In this document: positions 8,975 to 49,669 of the stretch, one piece after another
How the letters are laid out: every line of letters begins with the position of its first letter
Position numbering within the stretch: the first letter of the stretch is position 1
IMG/VR virus record: IMGVR_UViG_3300021425_000029
Coordinates: 3,266 to 67,265 of that record
Strand: one strand, 5' to 3'
DNA: 64,000 nt
Origin: a virus
Translations under genes and position numbers: made by a program
Notes under the pieces: model-generated
What the model was told of the DNA's origin: nothing
Databases searched by the model: none
The model's input: only the letters and a program-made list of their open reading frames with translations

Positions 8975-9026
8975 AAATGGTCTCCTAAACCTAAGTGATT
9001 AGTCGTAGGTACTTATAAGTTTAGGT

Positions 9027-9077
9027 GTTACATTTGTGTTACAGTTGTGTTATAGTTTTATGAAGTTTTTATGACAG
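9027..9077 (-). promoter_or_regulatory. Tandem Pho box array (PhoB-type)
   Basis: Five heptamers at exact 11-bp spacing on the minus strand: CTGTCAT, ACTTCAT, CTATAAC, CTGTAAC, ATGTAAC, upstream of pstS. Confidence 0.85.
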
Positions 9078-10889: not shown

Positions 10890-12004
10890 TGTACTATACT
10901 TATAGTAGTACTTACACCATTGATTACAATGGGGTCTAACTCTTTTCCGTCTTGGTCTATGTTTATTTCTGTTTCTGCGTTCTTGTCAACCGATATCTCT
11001 ACGATATCGCTTACATTTCTACTCACCAATACATTCTCACCGTCAACAATAGTTGCAACCTGAGTGACTGTATCGAATCCTTCTTCTGTGCCTTGTAGGG
11101 ATAACTCACCAGTAGTTTGTTGTTCTTTTAGAACATCCTCACCCAGTGAGTCAAAGTTATCCAACATATCTTCGAGTAGTTCAACATCCAGTAAATTGAT
11201 ATCCAATTCATTGAACTCCAGATAGTCCTTCTCCAGTTCTTCTTCTGTTAACAAGTCCTCATCCAGAAAGTCTATGTCAAGGGGATTGATATTCTTAGCG
11301 GCACTCACGCCTGTCATGAACTCTTCTGCGGTCTGTCTTTTCTTAGGGGGATTAATAATCATGATGTTGTTCAACATATCCAGAGTCAAGTCTAGAATAG
11401 ATGGTTTACTTGGGGGTGTCTCCATAACTGTTGTTGTGGTAGACTGGAATGGTTTGTTAAGTACAACTTCACCTGTCATTGTCGAAACAATAATTTCACC
11501 AGATGATACTCCATTCACATTAGGAAGAAGCACCACTAGTGTCTTTCCGAACTCATCTACCGTAACTGTGAAGTCCGTTCCACGGATACCGATAGATGCA
11601 GTCGGGGTCTTGAGCCTGATATTCTCTTTATCAACCTTACCCAGTTGACCAGATATAAATCTGGCAGTACCTTGGGCAAAGGTCATTGCAAGATCAGACT
11701 TACTTGGATCATCATCGAACACCACATTGTCAATCACAATGCGTGTGTGTTCGGTCATTCTTAGTTTACTATCATCAACAAAACGAACCTGAAGGCGACC
11801 CTCACCAGTGCGAAGGTCATCCTTCGAGATTACATCTTGTCCTTGATTTGGTTCGATCTCGTCCGAATCACGGACAATCTGTCTCCAACCTACGGCTTTA
11901 TCTACTGCACCTACTTCACTACTAGTCGCAACCGCTGGCACTACCAGAGTCAGACTGAGTGATACAAATAGTAGCGTCTGTTGTACTCGTTCCCGAACCT
12001 TCAT
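10886..12004 (-). CDS. FecR-domain periplasmic protein
   Basis: Signal-like hydrophobic stretch; DDLRTGEGR, F.DDS, TPTASIGIRGTDF FecR motifs; acidic C-terminal half. Confidence 0.85.
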   Translation of the reverse strand: MKVRERVQQTLLFVSLSLTLVVPAVATSSEVGAVDKAVGWRQIVRDSDEIEPNQGQDVISKDDLRTGEGRLQVRFVDDSKLRMTEHTRIVIDNVVFDDDPSKSDLAMTFAQGTARFISGQLGKVDKENIRLKTPTASIGIRGTDFTVTVDEFGKTLVVLLPNVNGVSSGEIIVSTMTGEVVLNKPFQSTTTTVMETPPSKPSILDLTLDMLNNIMIINPPKKRQTAEEFMTGVSAAKNINPLDIDFLDEDLLTEEELEKDYLEFNELDINLLDVELLEDMLDNFDSLGEDVLKEQQTTGELSLQGTEEGFDTVTQVATIVDGENVLVSRNVSDIVEISVDKNAETEINIDQDGKELDPIVINGVSTTISIVQ

Positions 12005-12641
12005 AATCTATCTCCAGTGAATCTGTCTGTAGAGTTGATTCTTGATGTACCTCTATGTCCCAATAACTACCAACACCAGTCAACACGAATTCGTGTCCAG
12101 CATAACCAGAACCGTTGTATAGTAAACTATTGTTGTCACCCGCAACATCCAGATTGAATGTAAGGTCTTCAGCATCAATGTTAACATCCGCAGCGTTAAA
12201 GTCACCTTCTAATACAAAATCAAAGTCCACTCCAGTAGCGGTATCCACCGAACCGATATCAAAGTCTAGGTCGTTATTACCACCAGTGATATCAATTAAA
12301 TAGTCACCTCCATCTGCACCATGAGTATTGTCCTTGTCAACATCAAACAACAAATCGTTCGTAGAACCACTGATATCAATGTCCACTGTTGAAGTACCAA
12401 TAATCTTACCAATCATATTATTACTACCTCCACTTATGTTGACATTGAAATCCATGTTGTCGCCATCAAGCAACATTTTTGTTGTATCCGAAGTTGACCC
12501 ACCGACTTTGTTTCCAGAGCCGTCTTGAACAATTTCTATAACACCACCATCACCAACTTGGTCAATGTAGATTTCATTATCTGCATATGCAGCACCAATC
12601 AAGAACATCATAACAAAAGTTAATTTTTGTTTTGCGTTCAT
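11922..12641 (-). CDS. Curlin-like secreted beta-repeat protein
   Basis: Signal peptide, NEIYIDQVG, repeated hydrophobic-x-G-x-x-N units (ISGGSNN, ISGSTND, ITGGNND, VAGDNNS). Confidence 0.65.
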   Translation of the reverse strand: MNAKQKLTFVMMFLIGAAYADNEIYIDQVGDGGVIEIVQDGSGNKVGGSTSDTTKMLLDGDNMDFNVNISGGSNNMIGKIIGTSTVDIDISGSTNDLLFDVDKDNTHGADGGDYLIDITGGNNDLDFDIGSVDTATGVDFDFVLEGDFNAADVNIDAEDLTFNLDVAGDNNSLLYNGSGYAGHEFVLTGVGSYWDIEVHQESTLQTDSLEIDYEGSGTSTTDATICITQSDSGSASGCD

Positions 12642-12645
12642 TTTT

Positions 12646-13446
12646 TTACTTTTCTCCGTTTATAACCCAGAACCCTTTTTGGTTTCCTCTCAAAATGAGT
12701 TCCAGTACACCCGCCTCTATCGCACGTTGTGTCGCAATAGACACGGATTCGTTTTGGGTAACTCCCGATTCGATCTCAACCAGTTCTGTACCCTGCTCTA
12801 TAAATTTAAACACATCTCCACCGAAAGCTGTGGAGAGTATGGTCTTACTGGATATGACATCCAACAATACCTCACCTGTTGCAACTGACACCAATCGTAT
12901 ATTAATTGTCACGGTGTCTATACTAAATTCACGAGAAGTACCAATGCCAAGGTATCTGGCACCCGCACCACCCGTGTCAACGGAAGTATCGTATCCTACT
13001 ATACCTCCTGCAATTATCATACCAGCAAAATACAGTGCCGGCAGTTTCTGAGAGTCATTTCCCTCATAAGATTGACGAGTTTGACGAATCAACTGTCGTT
13101 CTCTCGTCAGATGGTCAAGAATTTGACGGTCTACCACACGAAAGAATTTTCCGTCACCCGCACGAGTCAGTGCCCTTATCAGATATACATCTGGAGCCTG
13201 TGTAACCGCAGAACTAAAACTCGTTCCACCACTACTGTTCTGTCTCTTCTGTCCCGTCTGGTCTGTAAACTTGTAAACCGCAACTGTAGGTTTCTTCTTG
13301 GGAACTCCTACATTAATCAACTCTTCTTGTAAAAGAGTGTATTGTACTTTCGGTTCTTCTCTTTCAGGTATCTCAAATTGACCTCCGCCAATCGAAGCAC
13401 AACTAGATACCAAAATCACCAAGGGGAATAGTAATAGTCGTGACAT
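12646..13446 (-). CDS. csgG: Curli secretion channel lipoprotein CsgG
   Basis: Lipobox LVSSC; VAVYKFTDQTGQ, FSSAVTQ, GGAGARYLGIG, VSVATGEVL motifs. Confidence 0.9.
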   Translation of the reverse strand: MSRLLLFPLVILVSSCASIGGGQFEIPEREEPKVQYTLLQEELINVGVPKKKPTVAVYKFTDQTGQKRQNSSGGTSFSSAVTQAPDVYLIRALTRAGDGKFFRVVDRQILDHLTRERQLIRQTRQSYEGNDSQKLPALYFAGMIIAGGIVGYDTSVDTGGAGARYLGIGTSREFSIDTVTINIRLVSVATGEVLLDVISSKTILSTAFGGDVFKFIEQGTELVEIESGVTQNESVSIATQRAIEAGVLELILRGNQKGFWVINGEK

Positions 13447-13849
13447 TTCCATACTCATCTGTTACTGTTAATACCACTTCATCACCATCGGTGACATATG
13501 ATATACCCGTTCCTTCTATGTTGAACTCGCCCGATTCACTAGGGTTTTCTCCAAACATACTATCTACAATCTGTCTTGACAGTGTAGAATAAATTCTACT
13601 TTCTACATTACGAATAAATTTTGCGAGAGTTGTATTCTCGGCATCCCTCTCCAGTTGTTTCTGCAATTCTTCCAGTTCTTTCTTTATCGTTTCTTTTCTA
13701 CTATGTTCTTGATTCTCAATAGTCAGATAATGGGATGATTGATTGATACCACTAAAGGAAGGTGACTTGAATTCATGTTCAATGGGTGCAGCTTGCAATC
13801 CTGTTGCCACAAAAAACAACAACCCGAAACTAAGTCTCATTTTCTTCAT
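13403..13849 (-). CDS. csgF: Curli assembly protein CsgF-like
   Basis: Signal peptide then FKSPSFSG; C-terminal G.VTTITIP; adjacent to csgG. Confidence 0.8.
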   Translation of the reverse strand: MKKMRLSFGLLFFVATGLQAAPIEHEFKSPSFSGINQSSHYLTIENQEHSRKETIKKELEELQKQLERDAENTTLAKFIRNVESRIYSTLSRQIVDSMFGENPSESGEFNIEGTGISYVTDGDEVVLTVTDEYGNVTTITIPLGDFGI

Positions 13850-20907: not shown

Positions 20908-21934
20908 CCATTGATACCAATGACTTACGAGTGATAGAGTACTGAGACTGTAGGAAATCTTTGAAGTCTGTCTCTGCCCAGATAGGCGCCCAGAACTCGT
21001 CTTCCAGAGTTTGTTTCTCCCTTACTTTGGGGTCAACCATCTCTCCAGTCGATCTGTCAACCCTGCAATACCAACCATTACTAGGCTTACTGACATAACC
21101 ACCAGCAAGAGCAGCATCCAACAAACCGCTGTTACGCTCAACGCCACCTTGCCAAGACACGCTGATAGGAATCTTAGACTTCTCTTTGACATATCTTGAC
21201 TTCTCGACATTAATGACGAAATCATATCCTGTAACCTCCGTACCAGTTTTGTTCTGTCTACGACCCAGAATCCAGATGTTGTCTGCACTGTAGTAAATAC
21301 CAGTGCCACCACCTACGATATCTTTAGGGAAGAGACCAATTTCTTTATATGTATGGTTGACGGCAAGCATCGGAATGTTCTTCATGGTCAGGTACGGAGT
21401 ACACATACGGAACAGACCTTTGAGTGCTTTTGCTCGGGACATATCAGCCACCGACTTCTCGTTAATCGCATCTTCTAGTTCTTTTTTGGATGCGAGATTG
21501 CCAATTGAATCGATGACAATAATTACATCATCTTTTCTGTCAATATTCTCAAGTTGTGCAATTAAGTCGAACTTGAGTTCCTCGACATTGGCGATAGGTG
21601 TGTGTAACACCCGAGCGGTATCAATCCCAAACTGCTCAAAGTAAGATTGGGGACTACCAAACTCACTATCATAAAAGAGCAGAACTGCATCCTTCTTTGC
21701 CTCTAGATATGCCCCTGCCATTAGCAGTGCAAAAGAGGTCTTGAAGTGCTTAGAAGGGCCTGCCAAGACTGTTAGGCCAGGCGTGACACCACCGTCAATA
21801 CTTCCTGCTAACGCAATGTTCACCATCGGAACACTGGTTGGCACCATATCTTTTTCAGTGAAGAACTTACTCTCCGACAACACTTCCGTTGTCTTGATCT
21901 TGCTGTTCTTCTTTAGTTTGTCCATAATCGACAT
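20888..21934 (-). CDS. uvsX: RecA-like recombinase
   Basis: AGPSKHFKT, YDSEFG, DSIGNLAS, GGGTGIYYSAD. Confidence 0.97.
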   Translation of the reverse strand: MSIMDKLKKNSKIKTTEVLSESKFFTEKDMVPTSVPMVNIALAGSIDGGVTPGLTVLAGPSKHFKTSFALLMAGAYLEAKKDAVLLFYDSEFGSPQSYFEQFGIDTARVLHTPIANVEELKFDLIAQLENIDRKDDVIIVIDSIGNLASKKELEDAINEKSVADMSRAKALKGLFRMCTPYLTMKNIPMLAVNHTYKEIGLFPKDIVGGGTGIYYSADNIWILGRRQNKTGTEVTGYDFVINVEKSRYVKEKSKIPISVSWQGGVERNSGLLDAALAGGYVSKPSNGWYCRVDRSTGEMVDPKVREKQTLEDEFWAPIWAETDFKDFLQSQYSITRKSLVSMDDIVNE

Positions 21935-22808
21935 TATTTGACTCCTCACGTTCGTCTAGTTCATATTGTTTACGATAATTGTTGTTTATACTAACACACT
22001 TTTCAATTAATGTCAAGTCGGTATCAAACAAAGTAAATGCTTTTGTGTCTTTGGGGAAACACGCACCACCAAACCCACGCTTACCATCATAGCCAGGCAC
22101 ACGAGTATGACCCACCCCAATACGAGGGTCTTTGCCAATTGCGTTTGCAACAGTAGGGAAGTTACAACCAAACTTCTCAATCGAATCAAAGAGTTGATTG
22201 AAGAATGTAACCTTGGTCGCAAGGTATGAATTTACTCCGTACTTGATGAATGCAGCCTCAGGCCCAGAACAGAATAGATACTCTGTTGCAGTACACAGAC
22301 TGTACACATCATACAACTGTGCAAGTCCTTGACACGCATCAGGATGACCACCAATCACATGATACTCTGCGCTTACAAACTGTTCCTTTGCATTTGATTC
22401 TGTCAGGAACTCAGGATTGATAGTCAGTCGTTTGATGTCATCCTCAAATACGGAAGAATATAGACGATCTACAATATCAGGCGTGATTGTTGATTTGATA
22501 ACAACTCCACCTTCAGTATGTTCCAACAATTTCAGAGCGGCATCTTCTACGATGGATGCATCAACAAACCCACTCTCCGCCATAGGTGTTGGCGCACAGA
22601 CAAAAGTTACATGGGGTTGCCAGTCAACTAGGTCATCGATTGTTGTATCATACTTTGGGTCAACATAAAACTTTTCGATCTCTCGGTGAGTAAACGCATA
22701 GTCTACAGCACCTCCTACAAAACCATGACCAACAATACCAACCCTCAGTTTCTCTTGAACCATTTGGTGTTCGCCATTAGGATTGATATTTCTAGAACCT
22801 TCACTCAT
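21867..22808 (-). CDS. UDP-glucose/GDP-mannose dehydrogenase family protein (short form)
   Basis: GHGFVG, CAPTP, KSTI, NPEFL, GFGGACFPKD; no C-terminal UDP-binding domain. Confidence 0.85.
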   Translation of the reverse strand: MSEGSRNINPNGEHQMVQEKLRVGIVGHGFVGGAVDYAFTHREIEKFYVDPKYDTTIDDLVDWQPHVTFVCAPTPMAESGFVDASIVEDAALKLLEHTEGGVVIKSTITPDIVDRLYSSVFEDDIKRLTINPEFLTESNAKEQFVSAEYHVIGGHPDACQGLAQLYDVYSLCTATEYLFCSGPEAAFIKYGVNSYLATKVTFFNQLFDSIEKFGCNFPTVANAIGKDPRIGVGHTRVPGYDGKRGFGGACFPKDTKAFTLFDTDLTLIEKCVSINNNYRKQYELDEREESNNVDYGQTKEEQQDQDNGSVVGE

Positions 22809-23752
22809 TATTTTACTCCGTAATATTCTTTAAACCATCGAACAAATGCATTCACACCAACTTCGATGTTCACTTTGGGTTTATATCCGAGTTCTCTCAG
22901 TTTTCCTGTATTACTCCAAGTCTCTAGAGTATCAGCGGGATGTCGAGGAGCGAGAACAATGTCTGCCTCTTTCCCTAGTTCATTACTTATACACTCAATA
23001 AAGTGCATCAAGTCTACCTGTTTACCTCTACCAATATTGTAAATCTCACCAGAGTCAATATCAGAGAATAGTGCAATCTTAATACCTTCGATGATGTCAC
23101 CGATATAGGTAAAGTCTCGTTTCATCTTACCATAGTTAAATGCTTCGATAAAATGACCATGCATAATCTTATCAGTGAACTGGTATAGTGCCATGTCAGG
23201 TCTACCCCAAGGGCCATATACAGTGAAGAACCTCAGACCTACTGTGTTCAGTCCAGAGATTTTGAACTGACATTCGTTGCAGTACTTGGTGTATGCATAG
23301 GGATTCAACTGGTGACCAGTGACTTCATCTTCTACCCAACCAGTCTCAGGAATCGGCGTACCACCATAGACAGAACTGGTAGATGCATAGACTACCTTGG
23401 GCACATCATACATCTTACACACTTGAATAAGATTCTGTGTTCCGATGATGTTGTCATTATGATAGAGTTGTTCATTACCAACTGAATCACGCACACCCGC
23501 TCGTGCGGCCAAGTGCATCACGATATCTGGCATCTCTTTATTGAATACCATATCCAATGCATCGAAATCCTTCAGATCACAATCAATAACTTGGTGACCA
23601 AAGTATTCCACTCTGTCGTGTTTCAGTTGTGGGTCATAATAGTTATTGAAGTTATCAATACCAATAACCTCAAACCCATCTTCTAACAAACTGTCTGCAA
23701 GGTGCGAACCAATGAATCCTGCCGCACCAGTAATTAAAATCTTTCTACTCAT
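22808..23752 (-). CDS. NAD-dependent nucleotide-sugar epimerase (UDP-glucuronate 4-epimerase-like)
   Basis: TGAAGFIG, HLAARAGVR, YAYTK, LRFFTVYGPWGRPDMA. Confidence 0.9.
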   Translation of the reverse strand: MSRKILITGAAGFIGSHLADSLLEDGFEVIGIDNFNNYYDPQLKHDRVEYFGHQVIDCDLKDFDALDMVFNKEMPDIVMHLAARAGVRDSVGNEQLYHNDNIIGTQNLIQVCKMYDVPKVVYASTSSVYGGTPIPETGWVEDEVTGHQLNPYAYTKYCNECQFKISGLNTVGLRFFTVYGPWGRPDMALYQFTDKIMHGHFIEAFNYGKMKRDFTYIGDIIEGIKIALFSDIDSGEIYNIGRGKQVDLMHFIECISNELGKEADIVLAPRHPADTLETWSNTGKLRELGYKPKVNIEVGVNAFVRWFKEYYGVK

Positions 23753-28686: not shown

Positions 28687-29253
28687 CTATATAAAGTCTC
28701 TTGGGTCACAGTCAAGGTCACTCTCAAAACCAAATGAGAATGTAACCCGTGATACTGTGGGTTGCAGTTGATGCCATGTACCCCTTGGGATAAACACGCA
28801 ATCGCCTGGCTGCATAATGACAGTCTCGTCCGCATTCCTTGGTTCTTCGTTATAACCGATAGTGATTTTACACTCACCGATCATCTGAAGTAGGAATACA
28901 TCCATACTGTCTTTATGTCTCGGATACGAACCAGAGTTTTGACCAAATCCACAGAACGCAATGTTCGTGATTTGGGGCGCACCCTTTTCGTATTCAAATT
29001 TCTTTGGAGCGGGTTCTACAAAGAACTCTTCCATCTCCGTAACAATGTCTTTTGCAATCTGCGGTGCAGAGGGTCTTAGATGGAACGAGTTCATACCCAA
29101 TCTTGATTTTTCACGATTCCAGTCATATAATTCTTTTGGATGACTGTTGACCAAAGCCATCGCTTCGTCCCAAGTCCATTGGATGTCCTGTTTAGACCCC
29201 CACCAATGTTTCTTGTTGCGAATATCTTCTATGTGGTCTTTAAAACCAATCAT
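28687..29253 (-). CDS. JmjC/cupin Fe(II)-2OG dioxygenase-like protein
   Basis: HKDSMDVFLLQMIG (HxD), MQPGDCVFIPRGTWHQ. Confidence 0.8.
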   Translation of the reverse strand: MIGFKDHIEDIRNKKHWWGSKQDIQWTWDEAMALVNSHPKELYDWNREKSRLGMNSFHLRPSAPQIAKDIVTEMEEFFVEPAPKKFEYEKGAPQITNIAFCGFGQNSGSYPRHKDSMDVFLLQMIGECKITIGYNEEPRNADETVIMQPGDCVFIPRGTWHQLQPTVSRVTFSFGFESDLDCDPRDFI

Positions 29254-29851
29254 CTAATGTAACCTTTTCAAATTTAGACAATCTATCAGTAATCAGAATT
29301 GTTTTCTTATCTTCACCTGTGGGTTTGACATACTTCTCTTTGATTCCTGCACTGTCATCCCATTTCATAGATACAGACTTTCTATCCTTTGGCAATCCCG
29401 CAGTCTCTCCAATCTTCTTCCAGTTGTCTGCAAGATAGACTGCACCCTTCTTACCGTCTCCGATTGTAGTGAGTATGGCAATCAAGTCATCACCATATCT
29501 ATCATACCAATCTTTCTTTGCACGATTACGAACTGCCTTGAGAACTTGACTTCCCAGATTAGGTATATGTTTAATCATACAGAACCGTTTGTTATCGGCA
29601 ACCATGTTAAACATAGGATCAAATTCTTTTTGAGATTTGTCAAAGTAGTTGAGTATGGATTTGGGTGTTGGTTTAAAACCACTACCAATCCAGAATGTAC
29701 CGACTAACTCGTTTTCATAATAAATTAGATACTTAATGCATCTACCCACAGTCCTTGCACTTGCAACATAACTGTGATATTTGACCACAACATCATCAGC
29801 CAGTTTCTTCTGGTGTTTAGACTCTGCGATTTTTATAGTGAGTTTACTCAT
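29240..29851 (-). CDS. Mom-like/DUF4338 GNAT-fold protein, putative DNA-modifying enzyme
   Basis: KYHSY, LVGTFWIG, NKRFC, PNLGSQVL, GAVYLADNWKKIGET motif order. Confidence 0.65.
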   Translation of the reverse strand: MSKLTIKIAESKHQKKLADDVVVKYHSYVASARTVGRCIKYLIYYENELVGTFWIGSGFKPTPKSILNYFDKSQKEFDPMFNMVADNKRFCMIKHIPNLGSQVLKAVRNRAKKDWYDRYGDDLIAILTTIGDGKKGAVYLADNWKKIGETAGLPKDRKSVSMKWDDSAGIKEKYVKPTGEDKKTILITDRLSKFEKVTLDDWF

Positions 29852-30470
29852 AATTCATAAGTAAATTTGTTAATTCTTCACGACTATATCGCATTTTTAA
29901 TTCGTCTAGCAATTCCTCAGTCGGGAATCCTGGCCCGAGACCAACAGTGCGACCCATCCGATCAAAAACATACTTGTCTCCGTAAAACTTATTGCAGTAG
30001 TTACATTGAGGTATGACATTTTCAGGACTCATATCTTTACGAGGATTCATATGACCTTTCTCTAGAACAACTTTACCGTGTTCGTATCGATGACGCTTAC
30101 CTTCTTTCGCACTACAAGTCGCACATTCGCAATCATAGGCACTCTTCATCTCAGTGAAGTCAGAAGTATTTAGTTCGTTCAATCTTTTCTTGGCATGGAA
30201 TGATGGGTGAGGTTCTTTTGTGGTTACCAATCGGTAGTTGCCCTTTCCATCCTGTTCGACATACCAACCAGATTGTTTACCAAGATGTCGGGCATCCTGT
30301 AGATCAGACCCTTGATAGTTGATTAGTTTGGCAATCTCTCCCTTGGTCAACCAAGTCCCTTCGTACTCGTGTAAGACCATCAGAGTCTTGTACTTGTTGC
30401 TCCCCTCTCGGAAGTTGAACTTGACCCCATGTGGTTTCAGATAGGTTTCCCAATCAGATCGTAAACTCAT
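29844..30470 (-). CDS. HNH endonuclease with N-terminal helical domain
   Basis: CATC...LEKGHMNP...ENVIPQCNYCN; start moved to MSLRSDW after GAGG RBS. Confidence 0.8.
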   Translation of the reverse strand: MSLRSDWETYLKPHGVKFNFREGSNKYKTLMVLHEYEGTWLTKGEIAKLINYQGSDLQDARHLGKQSGWYVEQDGKGNYRLVTTKEPHPSFHAKKRLNELNTSDFTEMKSAYDCECATCSAKEGKRHRYEHGKVVLEKGHMNPRKDMSPENVIPQCNYCNKFYGDKYVFDRMGRTVGLGPGFPTEELLDELKMRYSREELTNLLMNYE

Positions 30471-30480
30471 AATATAAATC

Positions 30481-30528
30481 CTCATTCTCAATACAAGTAT
30501 TATACCACACCAGATCAAGAGTTGTCAA
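30481..30528 (-). promoter_or_regulatory. Early sigma70 promoter with conserved leader (copy C)
   Basis: TTGACA-18-TATAATACTTGTATTGAGAATGAG. Confidence 0.85.
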
Positions 30529-45128: not shown

Positions 45129-45175
45129 CTCATTATCAATACAAGTATTATACAGTCTGGTACATCTTTTGTCAA
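45129..45175 (-). promoter_or_regulatory. Early sigma70 promoter with conserved leader (copy E)
   Basis: TTGACA-17-TATAATACTTGTATTGATAATGAG. Confidence 0.85.
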
Positions 45176-45210: not shown

Positions 45211-45239
45211 TTGACATTGTTTGCTATATACTGTATGAT
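45211..45239 (+). promoter_or_regulatory. Sigma70 promoter of the plus-strand island
   Basis: TTGACA-17-TATGAT followed by GAGG RBS. Confidence 0.8.
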
Positions 45240-45263
45240 GGTAAACATTAATGAGGAATCCAC

Positions 45264-46385
45264 ATGAAACTAACACCAGAAGATGCTCGATATGCAGCGA
45301 GTGTATTTAACGATTACTTCGGAAAGATTCAAGATATCGCAGAATACAATAGGGGAATCAAGTTAGAACGCATTGCAGAAATGCCGTTCACCTTGCCCGG
45401 CATGGGCCCTGAAGAAGACTTCTTCACGGACTTCGATATGCACCCGTCCGAAATGAACTTTGCGGTTGATTCTATGCCACTTGATGCATTTCATCAGTAC
45501 CTAGAGATAACTTCATCCGCACCAGTTGAGAAGTCAATTCCAGGCAAGCAGTTAAATAAAATTGTGCGTGAAACCAACACTGGTAAAATCGTAGGTATGA
45601 TTCGATTCGGTTCTCCTACTATTAATAGTAGACCACGCAATCAACTCCTCGGTAAACCACTTGATACAACGAATCCAGAAGTCATGAAACGATTTAATGA
45701 TTCTGTGATAATGGGTTTTGCTATTGTGGCTGCCCAACCATTCGGGTTCAACTACCTCGGTGGTAAGTTACTGGCAGCAATCTGTTGTTCTCATGAGATG
45801 CGTGAAGAACTCAACAAGAAGTATGATGCAAACATCTGTATGTTCGAGACAACCAGTTTATATGGTTCTACCAAAGCACTGTCTCAGTATGATGGTATGA
45901 AACCTATACTTCGTTTTAGTGGTTTGACAGTATCTAACTTTTTGCCACTAATCAACGATGATATTTTTAGAAACCTCAACACATGGTTCGAGGATAAGAT
46001 TGGCGAACCACTCGTGCCTGTGGATGCCTCATCACGCAAACTAAAAACACAAACCAAGATGGTTGGTATCATCAAATCGTCTCTCAAGGGTGAGAAGGGA
46101 TATGATGAGTTCTGTCAAACCCTAGACCATGCATCAGGTCTTACGCAACAAAAACGCAGTTTCTATTCTCATTTTGGGTACGAGAATGTAGTCCCATATC
46201 TGAACATGGAAACCGACACATTAGTCAAGAAAGAAAACTATGATCGTTTCTATCTTGATAACCAAATCGATTGGTGGAAGCGTCAAGCAACCAAACGATA
46301 TAACAAGTTGAAAGAACAAAACGGAATCCGTACAGTTCTGGAGACTTGGAATACCAATGCTGACGAAATCGATATTATAAGATAA
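45264..46385 (+). CDS. DUF4338 (DruA/Mom-related GNAT-fold) protein
   Basis: GKIVGMIRFGSP, QPFGFNYLGGKLLA, FETTSLYG, SQYDGM motifs. Confidence 0.75.
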   Translation: MKLTPEDARYAASVFNDYFGKIQDIAEYNRGIKLERIAEMPFTLPGMGPEEDFFTDFDMHPSEMNFAVDSMPLDAFHQYLEITSSAPVEKSIPGKQLNKIVRETNTGKIVGMIRFGSPTINSRPRNQLLGKPLDTTNPEVMKRFNDSVIMGFAIVAAQPFGFNYLGGKLLAAICCSHEMREELNKKYDANICMFETTSLYGSTKALSQYDGMKPILRFSGLTVSNFLPLINDDIFRNLNTWFEDKIGEPLVPVDASSRKLKTQTKMVGIIKSSLKGEKGYDEFCQTLDHASGLTQQKRSFYSHFGYENVVPYLNMETDTLVKKENYDRFYLDNQIDWWKRQATKRYNKLKEQNGIRTVLETWNTNADEIDIIR

Positions 46386-46403
46386 GAATCTTATATATAA
46401 TAC

Positions 46404-46463
46404 TGTCAGTTCCAAATGGTCTGACACTTTAACTTAACTTTCTAGTTCCAGATGGTCTAGAAA
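46404..46463 (+). repeat. Two tandem hairpins with shared core AGTTCCARATGGTCT
   Basis: TGTCAG-TT-CCA-AA-TGG-T-CTGACA and TTTCTAG-TT-CCA-GA-TGG-T-CTAGAAA. Confidence 0.8.
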
Positions 46464-46479
46464 ACAACGGAGAAATGAT

Positions 46480-47466
46480 ATGACTACAGTCGTAAAATCT
46501 ACGCACATCAGTGCAAAACTAATTCAATCAGAAGGTGCTACATTCGTAGACTACATCGAGATTGACCCCCAAGACATCTATGTTTCTAAAACCGACTTGT
46601 CGGGCACTACAGGAAACAATCCCACACGATTTGCTTTAGACATGGGTAATGTCCAAGCACTTGCACAATCCTTCAAACAAAGTGGTCAAGACCTTTCATG
46701 TTCCACTATGGTTGTGGAGAAGTTGCCCAAACCAATCAAGGATTTTGACACAAACCGAGTCTATTCCTACCGATTGGTCACAGGAGCGCATCGTCATGCA
46801 GCAATGACTTCTATTAAGATGGATAAGGTGATTGTTGCATTGTATGAGTTTGAGAACCGTGAAGCTCAACTTAGATTTCAGTTAGTTGAAAACAATCACG
46901 CACCGAGCAAGGCATCTACTGCCGATGATCTTTGTAATGCACTGTGTTATGCAGTGCATCAGGGTTTCATTAGAAAGGATCGCAAAGCGATGGAATCTTA
47001 CCTTGCACCAATGAATAAGATTCATGGTAACACCAAGAATAAAGCGATAGCAATGGCATTAAGAGAAACTGGTGCATATCAAGACTATCACATATATACT
47101 CCCCAAGATGTGAAAGATTGGACAGCATCTAATGGTTTTGTTACAAGTGGTAAACTTGATAATAATCGCAATCAGGCTGGATGGTCTGTTAAAGAGGGGT
47201 ATGAGTATGAGTTCTTGATGAGTGCTATCAAGAAATATAGTGAGGAAGAACTGGAAAGTTATTTTGTCTGTCACGCCAAAGCACCAACAGAGAAAAAGTC
47301 TCTTGATGAAAAGCGTGATGGTATGACTTCGGAGTTTCGTAAACTAGAGAAGGCACTTGATAATGTATTTGAATACAAACGAAACAACGGCAAGTATCCT
47401 TGGTATGTGCTGGGTTTCTTACCACAAGATAATGGAAAGAAAGAAAATACCTTGATTGACGCTTGA
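46480..47466 (+). CDS. ParB/Srx-like domain protein
   Basis: NPTR, LAQSFKQSG, YRLVTGAHRHAA (GxHR), QLVENN. Confidence 0.7.
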   Translation: MTTVVKSTHISAKLIQSEGATFVDYIEIDPQDIYVSKTDLSGTTGNNPTRFALDMGNVQALAQSFKQSGQDLSCSTMVVEKLPKPIKDFDTNRVYSYRLVTGAHRHAAMTSIKMDKVIVALYEFENREAQLRFQLVENNHAPSKASTADDLCNALCYAVHQGFIRKDRKAMESYLAPMNKIHGNTKNKAIAMALRETGAYQDYHIYTPQDVKDWTASNGFVTSGKLDNNRNQAGWSVKEGYEYEFLMSAIKKYSEEELESYFVCHAKAPTEKKSLDEKRDGMTSEFRKLEKALDNVFEYKRNNGKYPWYVLGFLPQDNGKKENTLIDA

Positions 47467-47491
47467 CTTTCTCTGTTTAGTGTGTTACTAT
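47463..47491 (+). promoter_or_regulatory. Sigma70 promoter for the tRNA
   Basis: TTGACT-17-TACTAT. Confidence 0.7.
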
Positions 47492-47502
47492 ATAAAAACA
47501 AT

Positions 47503-47574
47503 GCGGAGTTAGTATAATGATTACATTAGGTGTCCAACCTAAAGATGGAGGTTCAAGTCCTCTGCTCCGCTCCA
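47503..47574 (+). tRNA. tRNA-Gly(TCC), atypical
   Basis: Acceptor GCGGAGT/GCTCCGC, U73, encoded CCA, anticodon arm TTAGG-TGTCCAA-CCTAA, T arm GGAGG-TTCAAGT-CCTCT; short D loop, G33. Confidence 0.85.
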
Positions 47575-47589
47575 ATTTTTTTACCTTTA

Positions 47590-47611
47590 CCCCGCTTCTG
47601 CGGGGTTTTTT
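47590..47611 (+). terminator. Intrinsic terminator after the tRNA
   Basis: CCCCGC-TTCT-GCGGGG plus T run. Confidence 0.85.
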
Positions 47612-47625
47612 AAGACAGATGTGAA

Positions 47626-48282
47626 ATGAAAACCAGACTCTTAGTTGATTGTATCGAAACAGACCAGTTTACTCTGGGTGTGTTGGGGAGGTCTGGCACA
47701 AGAAGTTTTGCGGATTACATCACTAGGTACTACATGGATTTTGTGTGGGAACTCCGCAAACGAGTACATCTAGGACTCGAATCCGCTCCAAAAAGAGAAC
47801 CGTCCCATCACCAATATTCGGTTACAGATATTGATACCTTCAACTCTATACCAAATAAGATTATGGTAGTGCGTGACCCAATAGACAGGGCAAAAAGTGG
47901 TATTGCTGTCAATTTCAATCCAGACTTTCATGGCAAACCGACTTTGCAATATATCGATTGGGACATGATTGATTATATCATTCCTTTCGAGGATATTAGT
48001 AACAAGTATCTAAATGGTTTTAATCATAATGTTGGGATAACACATGAAGCCGAAAGTTCGGTGGTCAAGGAAGTGGATCGGGTTATGAGTGAATCTGATC
48101 CTAAACAGGAAGGTGTATACTGGACAACTTGGTCACTTGATGACTTTGATTTCACACGAGAGATTGAAACCTACAATCTTGTTCTTAAAACAAAAGAGAA
48201 GTTACCCCCCTCACTATGGATTGAGTTACTAAGCAAGGTAACCGCCTGTAATATCCCATCCAAACATCTATTAAAGTGGTAG
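47626..48282 (+). CDS. Sulfotransferase-like protein
   Basis: GRSGTRS (5'-PSB-like) and VVRDPIDRAKS (3'-PB-like) motifs. Confidence 0.55.
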   Translation: MKTRLLVDCIETDQFTLGVLGRSGTRSFADYITRYYMDFVWELRKRVHLGLESAPKREPSHHQYSVTDIDTFNSIPNKIMVVRDPIDRAKSGIAVNFNPDFHGKPTLQYIDWDMIDYIIPFEDISNKYLNGFNHNVGITHEAESSVVKEVDRVMSESDPKQEGVYWTTWSLDDFDFTREIETYNLVLKTKEKLPPSLWIELLSKVTACNIPSKHLLKW

Positions 48283-48284
48283 AC

Positions 48285-48313
48285 AAAAAAAGGGAGACCC
48301 GAAAGTCTCCCTT
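48285..48313. terminator. Terminator between convergent gp23 and the plus-strand island
   Basis: AAGGGAGAC/GTCTCCCTT hairpin; the adjacent A run gives a U tail on the minus strand. Confidence 0.8.
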
Positions 48314-48355: not shown

Positions 48356-49669
48356 TTAGGTCAAGATGTTAGTCACCTTGAAGATACGGTAGTACTGGTT
48401 AGTCTTAGCAGTAGCAAGACCGTCAGAAGGTGTAGAACCAACAAATGGGTTTGAAGCCATTCCGTAACGAGTTTTAAACCCGATGCGAGGTTGGAAGTCA
48501 TCTTCACCAACTGCTTTAACCATTTGCAGAGGAACATATGGGCAGTAGAATACACCACTGTCATATGGGTTCTGACCTTTATAACCAACAGTGATGTAAT
48601 CAGTGTTAGCATAAGGATCGATGTATACACGGATACGACCGTTCAATACACCAGCAAAAGTGTTACCAGTATCGTCAACCTGAAGGTTGTTGTTGATAGC
48701 AGGACTGTAGTCCAAAGAACCAGCAGCAGCAAGAGCAGTAGCAACATCTGAAGAACAGATTACAACATTACCTTTACCACGGCGAGTCTCTTTAGCAATT
48801 ACATTACACTCACGGTCAATCTGAACAGTCAGACCTTTGAACTTCTCAGCAGACCAACGACCATCAGTATCAGAACTCATGTTGAAGATACCTTTGGCAG
48901 TTACATTAGACTGTTGAGCACCAGTTTTCGCCTGAGAGTTAACAGTACGAATAACTTCACGGTTGATTTCTGCAAGAATCTCAGTTGACAGAATGTTTGC
49001 CAACTCAGTTTCAGCGTCCAGACCGTGGATCGCTTTAAGGTCTTGAGCAAGTTCAAGAGTGTATTCTGCTTTCAAAGCACGAGACTTAGCAGTAACAGTT
49101 TGACGCTCAATGGTGAAACCCATTTCGTTGAAAGAAGAACCACCAGTACGACCAAGTGCTTCAGCATCAGCAGTAGGCATACCACCAGCGGCAAGAGAAG
49201 TCAAACGACCTCCTTCACTGTCAACACCGTTCCAACCAGAAGCGTTATCTGAATCGTGAGTACCAGAACTGTCACCAGAGAACTGAGTTTCAGCTTCGTT
49301 GAACAGTGCTTCACGGTTAGAAGTAGAACCACCTTGGTAACGAGACTTCATAGCGAAGATCAAACCAGTTGGGCCATTCATAGGTTGAACACCACACACA
49401 TCATAAGCGATGAGGTTAGGCATTGCACGGCGAACCAGTGAAATCAATACTGGGTCAAAGTTGTTTACTGAACCAGTGTTGTTCGCACCAGCAGCAGCGT
49501 TTTCGGAAAGGAAACCCTGAGAAGCAGAACGCTCTTCAGCGATTGCTTTTTCTTGGTTTTCTAGGATTGCAGCGGTAACTGCACGGCGGTGATTGTCTTG
49601 GATCACGCCAGCAGACTCTTCGTTAAGAACGGGAGCCCACTTTTCGATTAAACTATCGTAAGATTGCAT
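48356..49669 (-). CDS. gp23: Major capsid protein (gp23)
   Basis: KWAPVL, LENQE, GVQPMNGPTGLIFAM, SRALKAEYT, YCPYVPL. Confidence 0.98.
   Translation of the reverse strand: MQSYDSLIEKWAPVLNEESAGVIQDNHRRAVTAAILENQEKAIAEERSASQGFLSENAAAGANNTGSVNNFDPVLISLVRRAMPNLIAYDVCGVQPMNGPTGLIFAMKSRYQGGSTSNREALFNEAETQFSGDSSGTHDSDNASGWNGVDSEGGRLTSLAAGGMPTADAEALGRTGGSSFNEMGFTIERQTVTAKSRALKAEYTLELAQDLKAIHGLDAETELANILSTEILAEINREVIRTVNSQAKTGAQQSNVTAKGIFNMSSDTDGRWSAEKFKGLTVQIDRECNVIAKETRRGKGNVVICSSDVATALAAAGSLDYSPAINNNLQVDDTGNTFAGVLNGRIRVYIDPYANTDYITVGYKGQNPYDSGVFYCPYVPLQMVKAVGEDDFQPRIGFKTRYGMASNPFVGSTPSDGLATAKTNQYYRIFKVTNILT

What the first reader, a model, noticed from the sequence alone, without database searches (positions are those of the whole stretch)
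45211..47611. Plus-strand island pairing a DUF4338/Mom-like GNAT with a ParB-like protein and a non-canonical tRNA-Gly: candidate tRNA-dependent DNA hypermodification system
Seen: the only plus-strand block in the window, inserted between gp23 and gp3, carries a DUF4338-type gene, a ParB-like gene and the window's single tRNA (Gly), which has its own promoter and terminator. A second Mom-like gene lies at 29240-29851. Knowledge: Mu Mom is a GNAT-fold enzyme making N6-carbamoylmethyladenine and, as I recall, has been reported to use Gly-tRNA-Gly as donor; ParB-like genes recur in phage DNA-modification loci. Inference: the phage may supply a dedicated glycyl-donor tRNA, diverted from translation, for base modification.
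Basis: partly seen in the sequence, partly recalled or inferred. Interest (0 to 1): 0.85.

Follow-up and report, generated by a model that had tools for sequence, protein, structure and literature searches.

The report
Phage Mom-like enzyme with its own tRNA-Gly
A marine T4-like phage carries an acyltransferase of the same broad kind as phage Mu's DNA-modifying Mom enzyme next to a DNA-binding-type partner and an oddly built glycine tRNA, and this enzyme-tRNA pairing recurs across related phages, which suggests the phage brings its own glycine carrier for a chemical modification, probably of its DNA.

Summary
On the + strand, 45211-48282 holds a promoter-like site, a 373-aa DUF4338/DruA-family GNAT, a 328-aa ParB-N-like protein, a tRNA-Gly(UCC) with a terminator, and a sulfotransferase-like gene that the finding left out.

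- **The tRNA.** It is real (Rfam 47.8 bits) and atypical. It has G33 where tRNAs have U33, and its D loop lacks G18G19. The acceptor stem, U73, encoded CCA and C35C36 are intact.
- **The GNAT.** Its model's top solved-structure match is Mu Mom (Z 9.4), about level with ordinary GNATs. Sequence profiles do not place it in the Mom family.
- **The second GNAT (29240-29851).** It matches a Mom-like PHROG and aligns to the first GNAT at 90.7% probability.

The main result is co-occurrence.
- 31 of 80 related loci hold a tRNA-Gly-like gene beside the GNAT, always on its strand. ARAGORN found no other tRNA type there.
- In capsid-anchored loci, 9 of 10 with the GNAT have the tRNA, against 0 of 17 without it.
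- All 9 larger records with the GNAT encode a tRNA-Gly. None of 3 related phages without a close homolog does.
- Positions 33 and 34 and the elbow vary, while the acceptor end does not.

Best reading (about 0.5): a Mom-like, Gly-tRNA-dependent modification module with a dedicated glycyl carrier. The chemistry is untested.

The parts
45211..45239 (+). sigma-70-like promoter site of the + strand block (TTGACA-17-TATGAT)
   Evidence: 11 of 12 matches. It faces a perfect 12 of 12 site on the - strand at 45175-45147. The total count of such sites in the region does not exceed shuffles.
45264..46385 (+). GNAT1: 373-aa DUF4338/DruA-family acyltransferase, Mom-like by fold
   Evidence: Pfam PF14236 E 9.4e-11. 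phrog_19197 matches full length. Model pLDDT 78.7. Top of 48,161 solved chains is 8bv8_B, Mu Mom: Z 9.4, rmsd 4.0, 173 aligned. hhalign to the GNAT2 family gives 90.7%.
46480..47466 (+). 328-aa partner with a ParB/Srx-like N-terminal half and an unassigned C-terminal half
   Evidence: phrog_3264 E 9.8e-4. Model pLDDT 65.8. Best structural match is 5k5d_B, pNOB8 ParB-N: Z 6.6, rmsd 3.7, 143 aligned, model residues 18-199. Relative P0465, 81% identical, carries PF02195. Relatives lie directly after the GNAT in 9 loci.
47463..47491 (+). weak promoter-like site before the tRNA (TTGACT-17-TACTAT, TG before the second hexamer)
   Evidence: 9 of 12 matches. Weak on its own.
47503..47574 (+). atypical tRNA-Gly(UCC), with CCA encoded
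   Evidence: ARAGORN. Rfam tRNA 47.8 bits, with G at the U33 position and no G18G19. Covariation across 12 homologs: 15 of 21 pairs changed on both sides and 96.4% of cells paired. It is the sole tRNA of the contig.
47589..47606 (+). intrinsic-terminator-like hairpin and T run after the tRNA
   Evidence: 7 pairs, 6 of them G-C, followed by TTTTTT.
47626..48282 (+). 218-aa sulfotransferase-like protein, an occasional accessory of the block
   Evidence: ESM Atlas feature score 0.95 to viral sulfotransferase clusters, 171 shared features. No Pfam, PHROG or NCBIfam hit. A relative lies after the tRNA only in L038, and elsewhere in L006.
48290..48313 (-). terminator-like hairpin between the block and the capsid gene
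   Evidence: 10 pairs, T runs on both sides.
29240..29851 (-). GNAT2: 203-aa second DUF4338/Mom-like acyltransferase
   Evidence: phrog_1384 'Mom-like DNA modification protein' E 1.5e-5. Pfam DruA E 4.2e-5, below cut-off. hhalign to the GNAT1 family gives 90.7%, E 1.2e-6. hhalign to the Mom family gives E 0.0047, probability 7%.
29844..30518 (-). HNH-endonuclease-like gene directly upstream of GNAT2
   Evidence: phrog_1271 HNH endonuclease E 4.8e-4. Weak.
28687..29253 (-). JmjC/cupin-type protein directly downstream of GNAT2
   Evidence: Pfam JmjC_2 E 8.4e-11.

Best explanation
The block is a Mom-type modification module that brings its own glycine carrier.

Shown here:
- GNAT1 is a DUF4338-clade GNAT.
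- A tRNA-Gly-like gene is genetically tied to this GNAT family across diverse marine T4-like phages.
- These tRNAs keep the cloverleaf by compensatory change.
- They always keep G1-C72, C2-G71, G3-C70 (one exception), U73, C35C36 and, with one exception, an encoded CCA.
- They vary or degenerate at U33, at base 34 and in the D-loop/T-loop elbow.

Inferred:
- The host glycyl-tRNA synthetase charges the phage tRNA.
- GNAT1 takes the glycyl group from its 3' end, as Mu Mom does from Gly-tRNA-Gly.
- GNAT1 puts the glycyl group on a base of phage DNA. This protects the DNA from host nucleases.
- The ParB-like partner binds or slides on DNA to bring the enzyme to its substrate. In other phages the partner is a DUF262-like protein with an HNH-type end, or another ParB-like protein. 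Where it has a nuclease end, it may attack unmodified DNA.
- A private carrier that decodes poorly would feed the enzyme without draining, or depending on, the host's translational tRNA-Gly pool.
- GNAT2, with its HNH-like neighbour, may be a second module that draws on the same carrier.
For: (1) Local linkage.
- Of 80 viral loci with a GNAT1 homolog (59-94% identity; one search kept the best 80 of 122), ARAGORN finds a tRNA in 23. There is one tRNA per locus, every one is typed Gly, and all lie on the GNAT strand.
- A covariance model raises this to 31 of 80. All are on the GNAT strand.
- The tRNA lies 5-797 bases upstream of the GNAT, 48-76 bases directly downstream, or 397-1465 bases downstream behind one gene.
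- It occurs both in the capsid-side context and in the DNA-polymerase context.

(2) Control within close relatives.
- 27 capsid-anchored loci have at least 4 kb beyond the capsid gene.
- 9 of the 10 with the GNAT have the tRNA-Gly, against 0 of the 17 without it. Fisher p = 2e-6, not corrected for relatedness.

(3) Whole records.
- A tRNA-Gly is present in 5 of 5 long metagenomic records with the GNAT. One is a complete 144,435-base genome whose only tRNA is this one.
- It is present in 4 of 4 cultured phages with the GNAT. In HTVC008M the model's only hit is a tRNA-Gly(ACC).
- C48C1, Melnitz-3 and Mosig lack a close homolog. All 14 of their tRNAs were typed and none is Gly.

(4) Spread on the tree. 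Adjacency needs at least 7 changes on the GNAT tree and occurs in both main clades (quick tree).

(5) The tRNA is functional but oddly constrained.
- 96.4% of cells are paired, and 15 of 21 pairs changed on both sides. None of 500 shuffles reaches this.
- Among 29 distinct sequences the acceptor end and C35C36 are fixed.
- Position 33 is G in the window's clade. Position 34 is U, A, G or C.
- Several have T loops without the usual T-psi-C and D loops without GG. One lacks the D arm.
- This fits the Mom paper's surmise that Mom reads mainly the 3' acceptor end, since all three E. coli isoacceptors work (PMC13219725, sections 9 and 14).

(6) Enzyme kinship.
- GNAT fold, with Mom ranked first among 48,161 chains.
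- 'Mom' is the first named match of known function in the viral library (rank 8, E 1e-2), ahead of matches to endonuclease-like jumbo-phage proteins.
- GNAT2 matches a Mom-like PHROG and links to GNAT1 at 90.7%.
- Authors of PMC12801897 (passages read) annotated the S-SCSM2R homolog as methylcarbamoylase mom. It is 53% identical to GNAT1.

(7) DNA context.
- Partners are ParB-like: c48 and c63 (phrog_1033, E 3.5e-4).
- Another partner is weakly GmrSD_N-like with a weak HNH-like end.
- In cyanophages and pelagiphages the gene sits among replication genes.
Against: - No sequence method places GNAT1 in the Mom family. There is no PF25680 hit at E up to 0.1, and BLASTP finds nothing. hhalign of the two families gives E 0.34 and probability 0.2%.
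- Mom's lead in the structure search is within 1 Z of ordinary acetyl-CoA GNATs (9.4 against 9.2 and 8.9). Foldseek against the PDB gave no match at E 0.001 or better.
- In the weak GNAT2-Mom alignment, Mom's essential R111 and S124 do not meet conserved residues.
- GNAT1 keeps an invariant Q158-P-F-G161 ... G166-G167-K168 where classical GNATs hold the CoA pyrophosphate (alignment; the motif is recalled, not from a call). An acyl-CoA donor is therefore not excluded.
- Of 37 distinct, assessable loci, 14 have no tRNA next to the GNAT.
- Mosig has a distant DUF4338 protein (29% identity) and no tRNA-Gly.
- Several linked tRNAs look fully canonical, for example the G001 copy at 69.7 bits on Rfam's tRNA model, and could serve translation.
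- GGA and GGG make up 25% of glycine codons in the window, so a UCC tRNA has something to read.
- The site beyond the capsid gene is a hot spot. A sister lineage holds a tRNA-Asp there.
- The counts are not phylogenetically independent, and several loci come from the same contigs in both sets.
Confidence: 0.5

Rival explanations
1. The tRNA is the enzyme's target or a countermeasure, not its donor. GNAT1 would acetylate the amino group of Gly-tRNA-Gly, as the TacT-type GNAT toxins do, to shut down translation. Alternatively, the phage tRNA would replace or decoy host tRNA-Gly that is attacked during infection.
For: - The same linkage data fit this reading.
- GNAT1 keeps a glycine-rich loop at the place of the CoA-binding motif (motif recalled).
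- The Mom paper's Figure 5 legend lists GNAT toxins that acetylate charged tRNA (PMC13219725, section 14).
- That TacT prefers Gly-tRNA-Gly is my recollection, from no call.
Against: - A replacement tRNA should decode well, yet G33, A34, broken elbows and a copy without a D arm occur.
- ParB-like, DUF262/HNH-like and HNH partners and the replication-module setting point to DNA.
- No antitoxin-like small partner is conserved.
Confidence: 0.13
2. GNAT1 does use Gly-tRNA as donor, but the acceptor is not DNA. It would be a protein, a cell-envelope precursor, a lipid or a small molecule, as with FemX/FemA, L/F-transferase, MprF or PacB.
For: - S. aureus FemA is rank 4 in the structure search (1lrz_A: Z 8.7, rmsd 3.3, 147 aligned), level with Mom within 1 Z.
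- All linkage data fit equally well.
- An S21 ribosomal-protein gene (L007-L009) or a YunG-like gene sometimes follows the GNAT.
Against: - The recurrent partners are of DNA-binding or nuclease kinds.
- GNAT2 matches a Mom-like PHROG and sits beside an HNH-like gene.
- GNAT1 has one GNAT domain with a helical insertion, not the double GNAT and coiled coil of Fem proteins. The single domain is from the model; the Fem architecture is recalled.
Confidence: 0.15
3. The tRNA-Gly is an ordinary translational helper, and its adjacency is hitch-hiking. Both lie in a variable, recombination-prone cassette, and GNAT1 uses an acyl-CoA for an unrelated job.
For: - The site beyond the capsid gene varies, and a sister lineage holds a tRNA-Asp there.
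- In S-CAM9 and S-SCSM2R the tRNA-Gly lies in ordinary tRNA clusters far from the GNAT.
- GGA and GGG are 25% of glycine codons.
- Some linked copies are canonical.
Against: - Only tRNA-Gly, never another type, sits by the GNAT in 31 loci. This holds in two unrelated genome contexts and in at least four arrangements.
- 9 of 10 against 0 of 17 in close relatives.
- 9 of 9 against 0 of 3 whole records.
- Decoding features decay while the acceptor end is fixed.
- The capsid gene uses GGA or GGG in 3 of 40 glycine codons.
Confidence: 0.15
4. GNAT1 is a viral copy of the Druantia type I protein DruA. It would act as a decoy or inhibitor of that host defence system, with no catalytic role for the tRNA.
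For: Pfam DruA and PADLOC DruA models match residues 83-200.
Against: - The match covers only the GNAT core (profile positions 72-182 of 297).
- The catalytic-core motifs are invariant across 24-31 homologs, as expected of an active enzyme.
- This reading does not explain the tRNA linkage.
- No other Druantia gene is nearby.
Confidence: 0.05

Closest known systems
Phage Mu Mom (Pfam PF25680; PDB 8bv8), the Gly-tRNA-Gly-dependent adenine N6-carbamoylmethylating GNAT
   Same: - GNAT fold.
- Top structural match to GNAT1 (Z 9.4, 173 of 202 residues aligned).
- A helical insertion before the last strand in both: model helices 232-291, and Mom's insertion at about 175-209 (PMC13219725, section 13 passage).
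- A phage gene.
- A genetic tie to tRNA-Gly here matches Mom's proven donor.
   Different: - No significant sequence or profile similarity.
- GNAT1 is 373 aa against 241, with N- and C-terminal helical extensions.
- No equivalents of R111 and S124 could be found.
- Mu uses host tRNA-Gly and encodes none.
- Mu has the Com regulator, not a ParB-like partner.
- Mom is a late gene according to the paper, whereas this block has a sigma-70-like site.
DruA / DUF4338 (Pfam PF14236), the signature protein of Druantia type I defence systems
   Same: GNAT1 passes the family's curated cut-off. DUF4338 is called a GNAT domain in PMC10853773 (passage read).
   Different: - The gene is viral and has no DruB-E neighbours.
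- The match covers only the GNAT core.
- The function of DruA is not known to me, and no paper that I read states it. The search listed work on Druantia type III only.
Mom-endonuclease fusions and multiple 'momylation' genes of jumbo phages (Iyer et al. 2021, PMC7824862, passages read)
   Same: - A Mom-like GNAT is paired with a nuclease or DNA-binding module.
- There is more than one such enzyme per genome.
- Endonuclease-like jumbo-phage proteins appear among the viral structural matches.
   Different: - Here the partner is a separate gene of the ParB/Srx kind, or HNH for GNAT2.
- That paper assumed an acyl-CoA donor.
- In the passages that I read it mentions no tRNA gene.
Aminoacyl-tRNA-dependent GNAT-fold transferases (FemX/FemA, L/F-transferase, PacB)
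   Same: They use a charged tRNA as amino-acid donor outside translation. FemA is a close structural match (Z 8.7), and it uses Gly-tRNA, some isoacceptors of which are poor in translation (recalled, from no call).
   Different: Their acceptors are peptidoglycan, proteins or antibiotics. Their domain architecture differs, and they have no DNA-type partners.

Membership tests
GNAT superfamily | GNAT alpha/beta fold | tested here: met
   Model pLDDT 78.7. 229 chains reach Z of 5 or more. All 50 entries shown have the GNAT fold or a fold related to it (FemA, acyl-homoserine-lactone synthase and the like), and most are GNAT acyltransferases. Foldseek probabilities are 0.96-1.00 for many GNATs.
DruA / DUF4338 (PF14236) | Score over Pfam's gathering cut-off | tested here: met
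   GNAT1 scores 41.8 bits against 27, E 9.4e-11. GNAT2 scores 23.3 bits, below the cut-off, though some of its relatives carry PF14236.
Druantia type I system | DruA together with DruB-DruE (large helicase) in one locus | tested here: not met
   PADLOC on 5 proteins of the two loci gave DruA models only. Pfam on 53 other window proteins shows T4-type replication and structural genes.
Mom family (PF25680) | Match to the family profile | tested here: not met
   Mu Mom hits PF25680 at E 2.4e-75. GNAT1 has no hit at E up to 0.1. hhalign between the families gives E 0.34.
Mom family (PF25680) | Essential residues R111 and S124 | tested here: inconclusive
   The only alignment available is weak: GNAT2 family against Mom family, E 0.0047, probability 7%. 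It does not pair these residues with conserved ones. The fold tools gave no residue-level structural alignment.
Mom family (PF25680) | HTH-like helical insertion needed for activity | tested here: inconclusive
   The model has helices at 232-246, 258-274 and 280-291 between strands 217-221 and 298-302. Mom aligns over more residues (173) than plain GNATs do (134-155). Equivalence was not shown.
Mom family (PF25680) | Gly-tRNA-Gly as donor and adenine in dsDNA as acceptor | not testable with these tools
   Only genomic linkage to tRNA-Gly is shown.
tRNA (Rfam RF00005) | Score over the gathering cut-off and a cloverleaf kept by covariation | tested here: met
   47.8 bits against 29. 15 of 21 pairs changed on both sides, and none of 500 shuffles reaches this.
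Canonical elongator tRNA | U33, G18G19 and the T-psi-C loop | tested here: not met
   The window's tRNA has G33 and no G18G19. Other linked copies have T loops such as UGCAUUA and D loops such as AAAAGUA. Roughly a third of the distinct copies are canonical.
tRNA-Gly identity for bacterial glycyl-tRNA synthetase | G1-C72, C2-G71, G3-C70, U73, C35, C36 (set recalled, from no call) | tested here: met
   All are present in the window's tRNA. The first three pairs are invariant in 12 of 12 sequences. U73 and C35C36 are present in all 29 distinct sequences. Charging itself was not tested.
ParB/Srx superfamily (PF02195) | Profile match or ParB-N fold with the GxxR box | tested here: inconclusive
   ORF2 has no Pfam hit. 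Weak matches: phrog_3264 and TIGR00180. Z 6.6 to pNOB8 ParB-N on a model of pLDDT 65.8. G102, R105 and A108 are invariant in 6 sequences. A relative 81% identical carries PF02195.

The most novel reading that the evidence does not exclude
These phage tRNA-Gly genes are not translation genes. They would be dedicated glycyl carriers ('cofactor tRNAs') that co-evolve with DUF4338-clade GNATs. Selection would hold only what the synthetase and the transferase read: the acceptor stem, U73, CCA and C35C36. It would not hold what the ribosome reads. If so, the whole DUF4338 family would be aminoacyl-tRNA-dependent nucleic-acid modifiers. That includes DruA of Druantia type I and the relatives found in giant viruses. 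The lone tRNA of phages such as HTVC008M would then be explained.
Probability: 0.3. Interest if true: 0.9.

Novelty: new variant of a known kind. Interest (0 to 1): 0.78.

Why it matters
- Only one enzyme, Mu Mom, is known to use a charged tRNA to modify DNA, and it borrows host tRNA. If the pairing found here is functional, abundant ocean phages of cyanobacteria, SAR11 and related hosts would carry a wider, sequence-divergent branch of that chemistry together with a private, partly non-decoding tRNA.
- This would give a concrete, testable function to DUF4338/DruA, whose role in Druantia type I defence I found stated in none of the papers that I read.
- It would offer a non-translational reason for some phage tRNA genes, which are usually put down to codon usage.
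- It would predict a new or Mom-like base modification in marine phage DNA. Such a modification would affect restriction, sequencing signals and metagenome interpretation.
- Cultured carriers exist, so the test is ordinary bench work.
- I found no paper linking a phage tRNA-Gly to Mom-like or DUF4338 genes. The PDF supplements of PMC13219725 could not be seen. They cover the authors' network of more than 8000 metagenomic homologs and might touch on this.

Tried and rejected
- **Mom by sequence.** BLASTP of GNAT1 and GNAT2 against Mu Mom and against each other found nothing. hhalign of the GNAT1 family against the Mom family gave E 0.34.
- **Solved structures by sequence.** PDB sequence searches for GNAT1, the ORF2 family and the partner families c63 and c27 gave nothing beyond chance, apart from weak Cas9 HNH-domain hits for the c27 C-terminus at E 0.3-1.
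- **Foldseek against the PDB.** No match for GNAT1 at E 0.001 or better.
- **Partner families.** hhalign of the ORF2 family against c63 and c27 was not significant. Against c144 it was borderline (E 2.9e-4, probability 40%).
- **Annotation libraries.** NCBIfam gave no name for GNAT1, GNAT2 or ORF3.
- **Druantia literature.** One preprint searched for the whole word DruA held none.
- **GNAT1-ORF2 complex.** Prediction was never run. The queue was full at each of seven hand-ins.
- **Sequencing runs.** No RNA holder is listed for the block.
- **ORF1-ORF2 spacer.** The two hairpins are no more stable than shuffles (z -1.19).
- **Codon-usage explanation.** Considered and not excluded.
- **A first Pfam call** failed on a wrong strand and was repeated correctly.

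Full report
**What is there.**
The window is part of a 67,265-base viral contig from a marine T4-like phage.
- Its capsid protein is 70% identical to that of phage C48C1, 65% to Methylophilales phage Melnitz and 62% to Pelagibacter phage HTVC008M.
- Pfam shows the usual T4-type replication and structural genes, almost all on the - strand.

Between the capsid gene (48356-49669, -) and a run of small - strand genes lies a + strand block:
- a TTGACA-17-TATGAT site at 45211-45239;
- ORF1/GNAT1 (45264-46385);
- ORF2 (46480-47466);
- a weak promoter-like site (47463-47491);
- tRNA-Gly(UCC) (47503-47574);
- a strong terminator (47589-47606);
- ORF3 (47626-48282);
- a terminator-like hairpin with T runs on both sides (48290-48313).

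In C48C1 and Melnitz-3 the capsid gene is followed directly by the tail-tube-like gene, UvsY and UvsW. The block is therefore an insertion relative to them.

**The proteins.**

*GNAT1.*
- It passes Pfam's cut-off for DruA/DUF4338 (E 9.4e-11). It matches phrog_19197 end to end and PADLOC's DruA models weakly.
- A comparative-genomics paper calls DUF4338 a GNAT domain (PMC10853773, passage read).
- An AlphaFold2 model built from 24 homologs (pLDDT 78.7) is a GNAT core at residues 60-316. It has a three-helix insertion before the last strand and helical ends.
- Against 48,161 representative solved chains, the top match is the crystal structure of Mu Mom (8bv8_B: Z 9.4, rmsd 4.0, 173 aligned). Plain GNATs follow at Z 9.2-8.0, and S. 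aureus FemA is at Z 8.7. These values are within 1 Z of each other, so the ranking alone proves little.
- In the viral structure library, the best matches are uncharacterised giant-virus and phage proteins. The first named match of known function is a Salmonella-phage Mom (rank 8, E 1e-2). Endonuclease-like jumbo-phage proteins follow further down.
- By sequence GNAT1 is not a Mom. It has no PF25680 hit, BLASTP finds nothing, and hhalign gives E 0.34.

*GNAT2 (29240-29851, -).*
- It bridges the two families loosely. It matches the PHROG 'Mom-like DNA modification protein' (E 1.5e-5).
- It aligns to the GNAT1 family at 90.7% probability (E 1.2e-6).
- It aligns to the Mom family only at E 0.0047 and probability 7%.
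- It lies beside an HNH-like gene and a JmjC/cupin gene.

*Published annotation of a homolog.* The authors of PMC12801897 (passages read) annotated the S-SCSM2R homolog, 53% identical to GNAT1, as 'methylcarbamoylase mom'. [quoted passage not shown] They assumed acetyl-CoA as donor and made no link to a tRNA.

*ORF2.*
- It is weakly ParB-like by sequence.
- Its low-confidence model (pLDDT 65.8) best matches the ParB-N domain of pNOB8 (Z 6.6, rmsd 3.7, 143 aligned). PadC and KorB come lower.
- A relative 81% identical to it carries PF02195.
- The C-terminal half (204-328) has only weak, unconvincing restriction-enzyme-like matches.

*ORF3.* It looks like a sulfotransferase. It accompanies the block only in L038.

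**The tRNA.**
- Rfam's alignment and a model-based alignment of 29 distinct relatives show that the window's tRNA has the anticodon loop U-G-UCC-A-A. That puts G where U33 stands in nearly all tRNAs.
- Its D loop has no G18G19. Its T loop is normal, and it ends in U73-CCA.
- It has G1-C72, C2-G71, G3-C70, U73, C35 and C36. I recall these as the identity set of bacterial glycyl-tRNA synthetase; no call gave this.
- The fold is under selection. Across 12 homologs, 96.4% of cells pair and 15 of 21 pairs changed on both sides. Slid controls and 500 shuffles all fall far short.

**The linkage.**

*Local adjacency.*
- I fetched the 80 best of 122 viral loci that encode a GNAT1 homolog.
- ARAGORN found a tRNA in 23 of the 80. 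There was one per locus, each typed Gly (19 UCC, 4 ACC), and each on the GNAT's strand.
- A covariance model built from 12 of them found 31 of 80, all on that strand. It found none in the 12-kb HTVC008M stretch.
- The 8 extra copies were missed by ARAGORN because they are odd. Their T loops read UGCAUUA or GGCAGUA, and their D loops read AAAAGUA. One has a CCC-type loop, and one has no D arm.
- The tRNA lies just upstream of the GNAT, just downstream, or behind one intervening gene.
- The pair occurs in two unrelated settings: between the capsid and gp3-like genes, and after the DNA polymerase gene.
- Among 54 full-length GNAT rows (53 different sequences), 23 have the tRNA alongside. 14 have none although at least 0.9 kb upstream and 1.7 kb downstream are available, and 17 are too truncated to tell.
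- On a quick maximum-likelihood tree the trait needs 10 changes, at least 7 of them forced by supported branches, and it occurs in both main clades (the careful search did not finish).

*Controls.*
- (a) Capsid-anchored loci from close relatives. 27 of these 80 loci have at least 4 kb beyond the capsid gene.
  - Of these, 10 have the GNAT and 9 of those have the tRNA-Gly.
  - The other 17 lack the GNAT and none has a tRNA-Gly, though 6 hold a tRNA-Asp at that site. Fisher p = 2e-6.
  - Four of the ten positives are contigs already in the first set, and the rows are related, so the p-value overstates independence.
- (b) Five long records with the GNAT. All five hold a tRNA-Gly.
  - One complete 144,435-base genome has this as its only tRNA.
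  - In two records without an adjacent copy, a tRNA-Gly(GCC) lies about 8 kb away.
  - In one 54.6-kb fragment the only tRNA is a tRNA-Gly far from the GNAT.
- (c) Four cultured carriers. All hold a tRNA-Gly (ARAGORN was run on the best-scoring locus of each record, 4 of the 12 loci).
  - HTVC008M has a single model hit, a tRNA-Gly(ACC) 8.3 kb upstream on the same strand.
  - S-SSM7 has one 3.2 kb downstream (also annotated).
  - In S-CAM9 and S-SCSM2R it lies inside tRNA clusters.
- (d) Three cultured relatives without a close homolog. C48C1, Melnitz-3 and Mosig hold 14 tRNAs, all typed, and none is Gly. Mosig does have a distant DUF4338 protein (29% identity), which is a mild counter-example for the wider family.

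**Reading.**
- Mu Mom transfers glycine from Gly-tRNA-Gly to adenine N6 in dsDNA. It accepts all three E. coli isoacceptors but not Gly-tRNA-Ala. Its authors surmise that it reads mainly the acceptor end (PMC13219725, abstract and sections 9 and 14).
- The pattern here is what one expects if a Mom-like enzyme and a private glycyl carrier evolve together. The acceptor end and the synthetase's anticodon bases are fixed. Position 33, position 34 and the elbow are free to drift.
- A tRNA needed for decoding should not tolerate G33, A34 or a broken elbow.
- DNA as the target is the weaker inference. It rests on three things:
  - the ParB-like (c48, c63) and weakly DUF262/HNH-like (c27) partners;
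  - the HNH-like neighbour of GNAT2;
  - the placement among replication genes in cyanophages and pelagiphages.
- I put the full chain at about 0.5: Gly-tRNA as donor, DNA as acceptor, and a dedicated carrier.

**What speaks against it.**
- Membership of the Mom family fails by sequence.
- Mom's catalytic residues could not be placed.
- GNAT1 keeps a glycine-rich loop where GNATs bind CoA (motif recalled).
- 14 of 37 assessable loci lack an adjacent tRNA.
- Some linked tRNAs are canonical.
- GGA and GGG are 25% of glycine codons in the window, though only 3 of 40 in the capsid gene.
- The insertion site is a hot spot.

The rivals are therefore kept. The tRNA could be a target or a decoy (0.13). 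The acceptor could be something other than DNA (0.15). The tRNA could be an ordinary one that hitch-hikes (0.15). GNAT1 could be a Druantia decoy (0.05).

**Novelty.**
- tRNA-dependent DNA modification by Mom is published. I found no paper on a phage-encoded tRNA-Gly tied to a DUF4338-clade GNAT and a ParB-like partner.
- The PDF supplements of the Mom paper were not readable here. They might show whether its metagenomic homolog network includes this family.
- I file this as a new variant of a known kind.

Noticed in passing
window 7979-13849 (- strand): A run of host-like genes inside the phage: a PstS-type phosphate-binding protein, a CHASE2-adenylate/guanylate cyclase, a FecR-domain protein, and the curli secretion components CsgG and CsgF. 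A cyclase together with CsgGF in a T4-like phage is unusual.
   Followed up: no
L150, L153-L158, L160, L161 (just beyond the capsid gene): A sister lineage without the GNAT holds a tRNA-Asp(GTC) at the same variable site beyond the capsid gene. I did not look at what it sits beside.
   Followed up: partly
L007:2948-3244, also L008 and L009: A ribosomal protein S21 homolog (Pfam E 1.1e-16) directly follows the GNAT in three loci that lack the tRNA.
   Followed up: no
L065, L077, L061, L066, L067, L026, L030: A small YunG-like protein (PF24585, E 1.6e-6) lies directly after the GNAT. In L065 and L077 it lies between the GNAT and the tRNA.
   Followed up: no
window 46408-46458: Two similar hairpins lie in the ORF1-ORF2 spacer. 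They share a 15-base direct repeat, AGTTCCAAATGGTCT and AGTTCCAGATGGTCT, 36 bases apart, and their loops contain UUCCA as the tRNA-Gly anticodon loops do. Folding is no better than shuffles (z -1.19).
   Followed up: partly
L074:3994-4057 and L077:4149-4217: Minimal tRNA-like genes lie next to the GNAT. One has no D arm and a long anticodon-type hairpin. The other has a CCC-type loop and a 5' end reading GCC. Both keep the acceptor stem, U73 and CCA.
   Followed up: partly
GNAT1 model against the viral structure library: The best structural matches are uncharacterised proteins of giant viruses: Faunusvirus (E 5e-14), Yasminevirus and Dasosvirus. DUF4338-like GNATs therefore occur in viruses of eukaryotes too.
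   Followed up: no
window 21870-23752 (- strand): UDP-glucose/GDP-mannose dehydrogenase-like and NAD-dependent epimerase/dehydratase genes lie between UvsX and the DNA polymerase gene. This is sugar-nucleotide chemistry of unknown use.
   Followed up: no
window 45147-45175 (- strand): A perfect 12 of 12 sigma-70 consensus site (TTGACA-17-TATAAT) faces away from the block's own promoter-like site, which gives a divergent pair.
   Followed up: no
window 47626-48282: ORF3 resembles viral sulfotransferases (Atlas score 0.95). It follows the tRNA here and in L038 only, and its role is unknown.
   Followed up: partly
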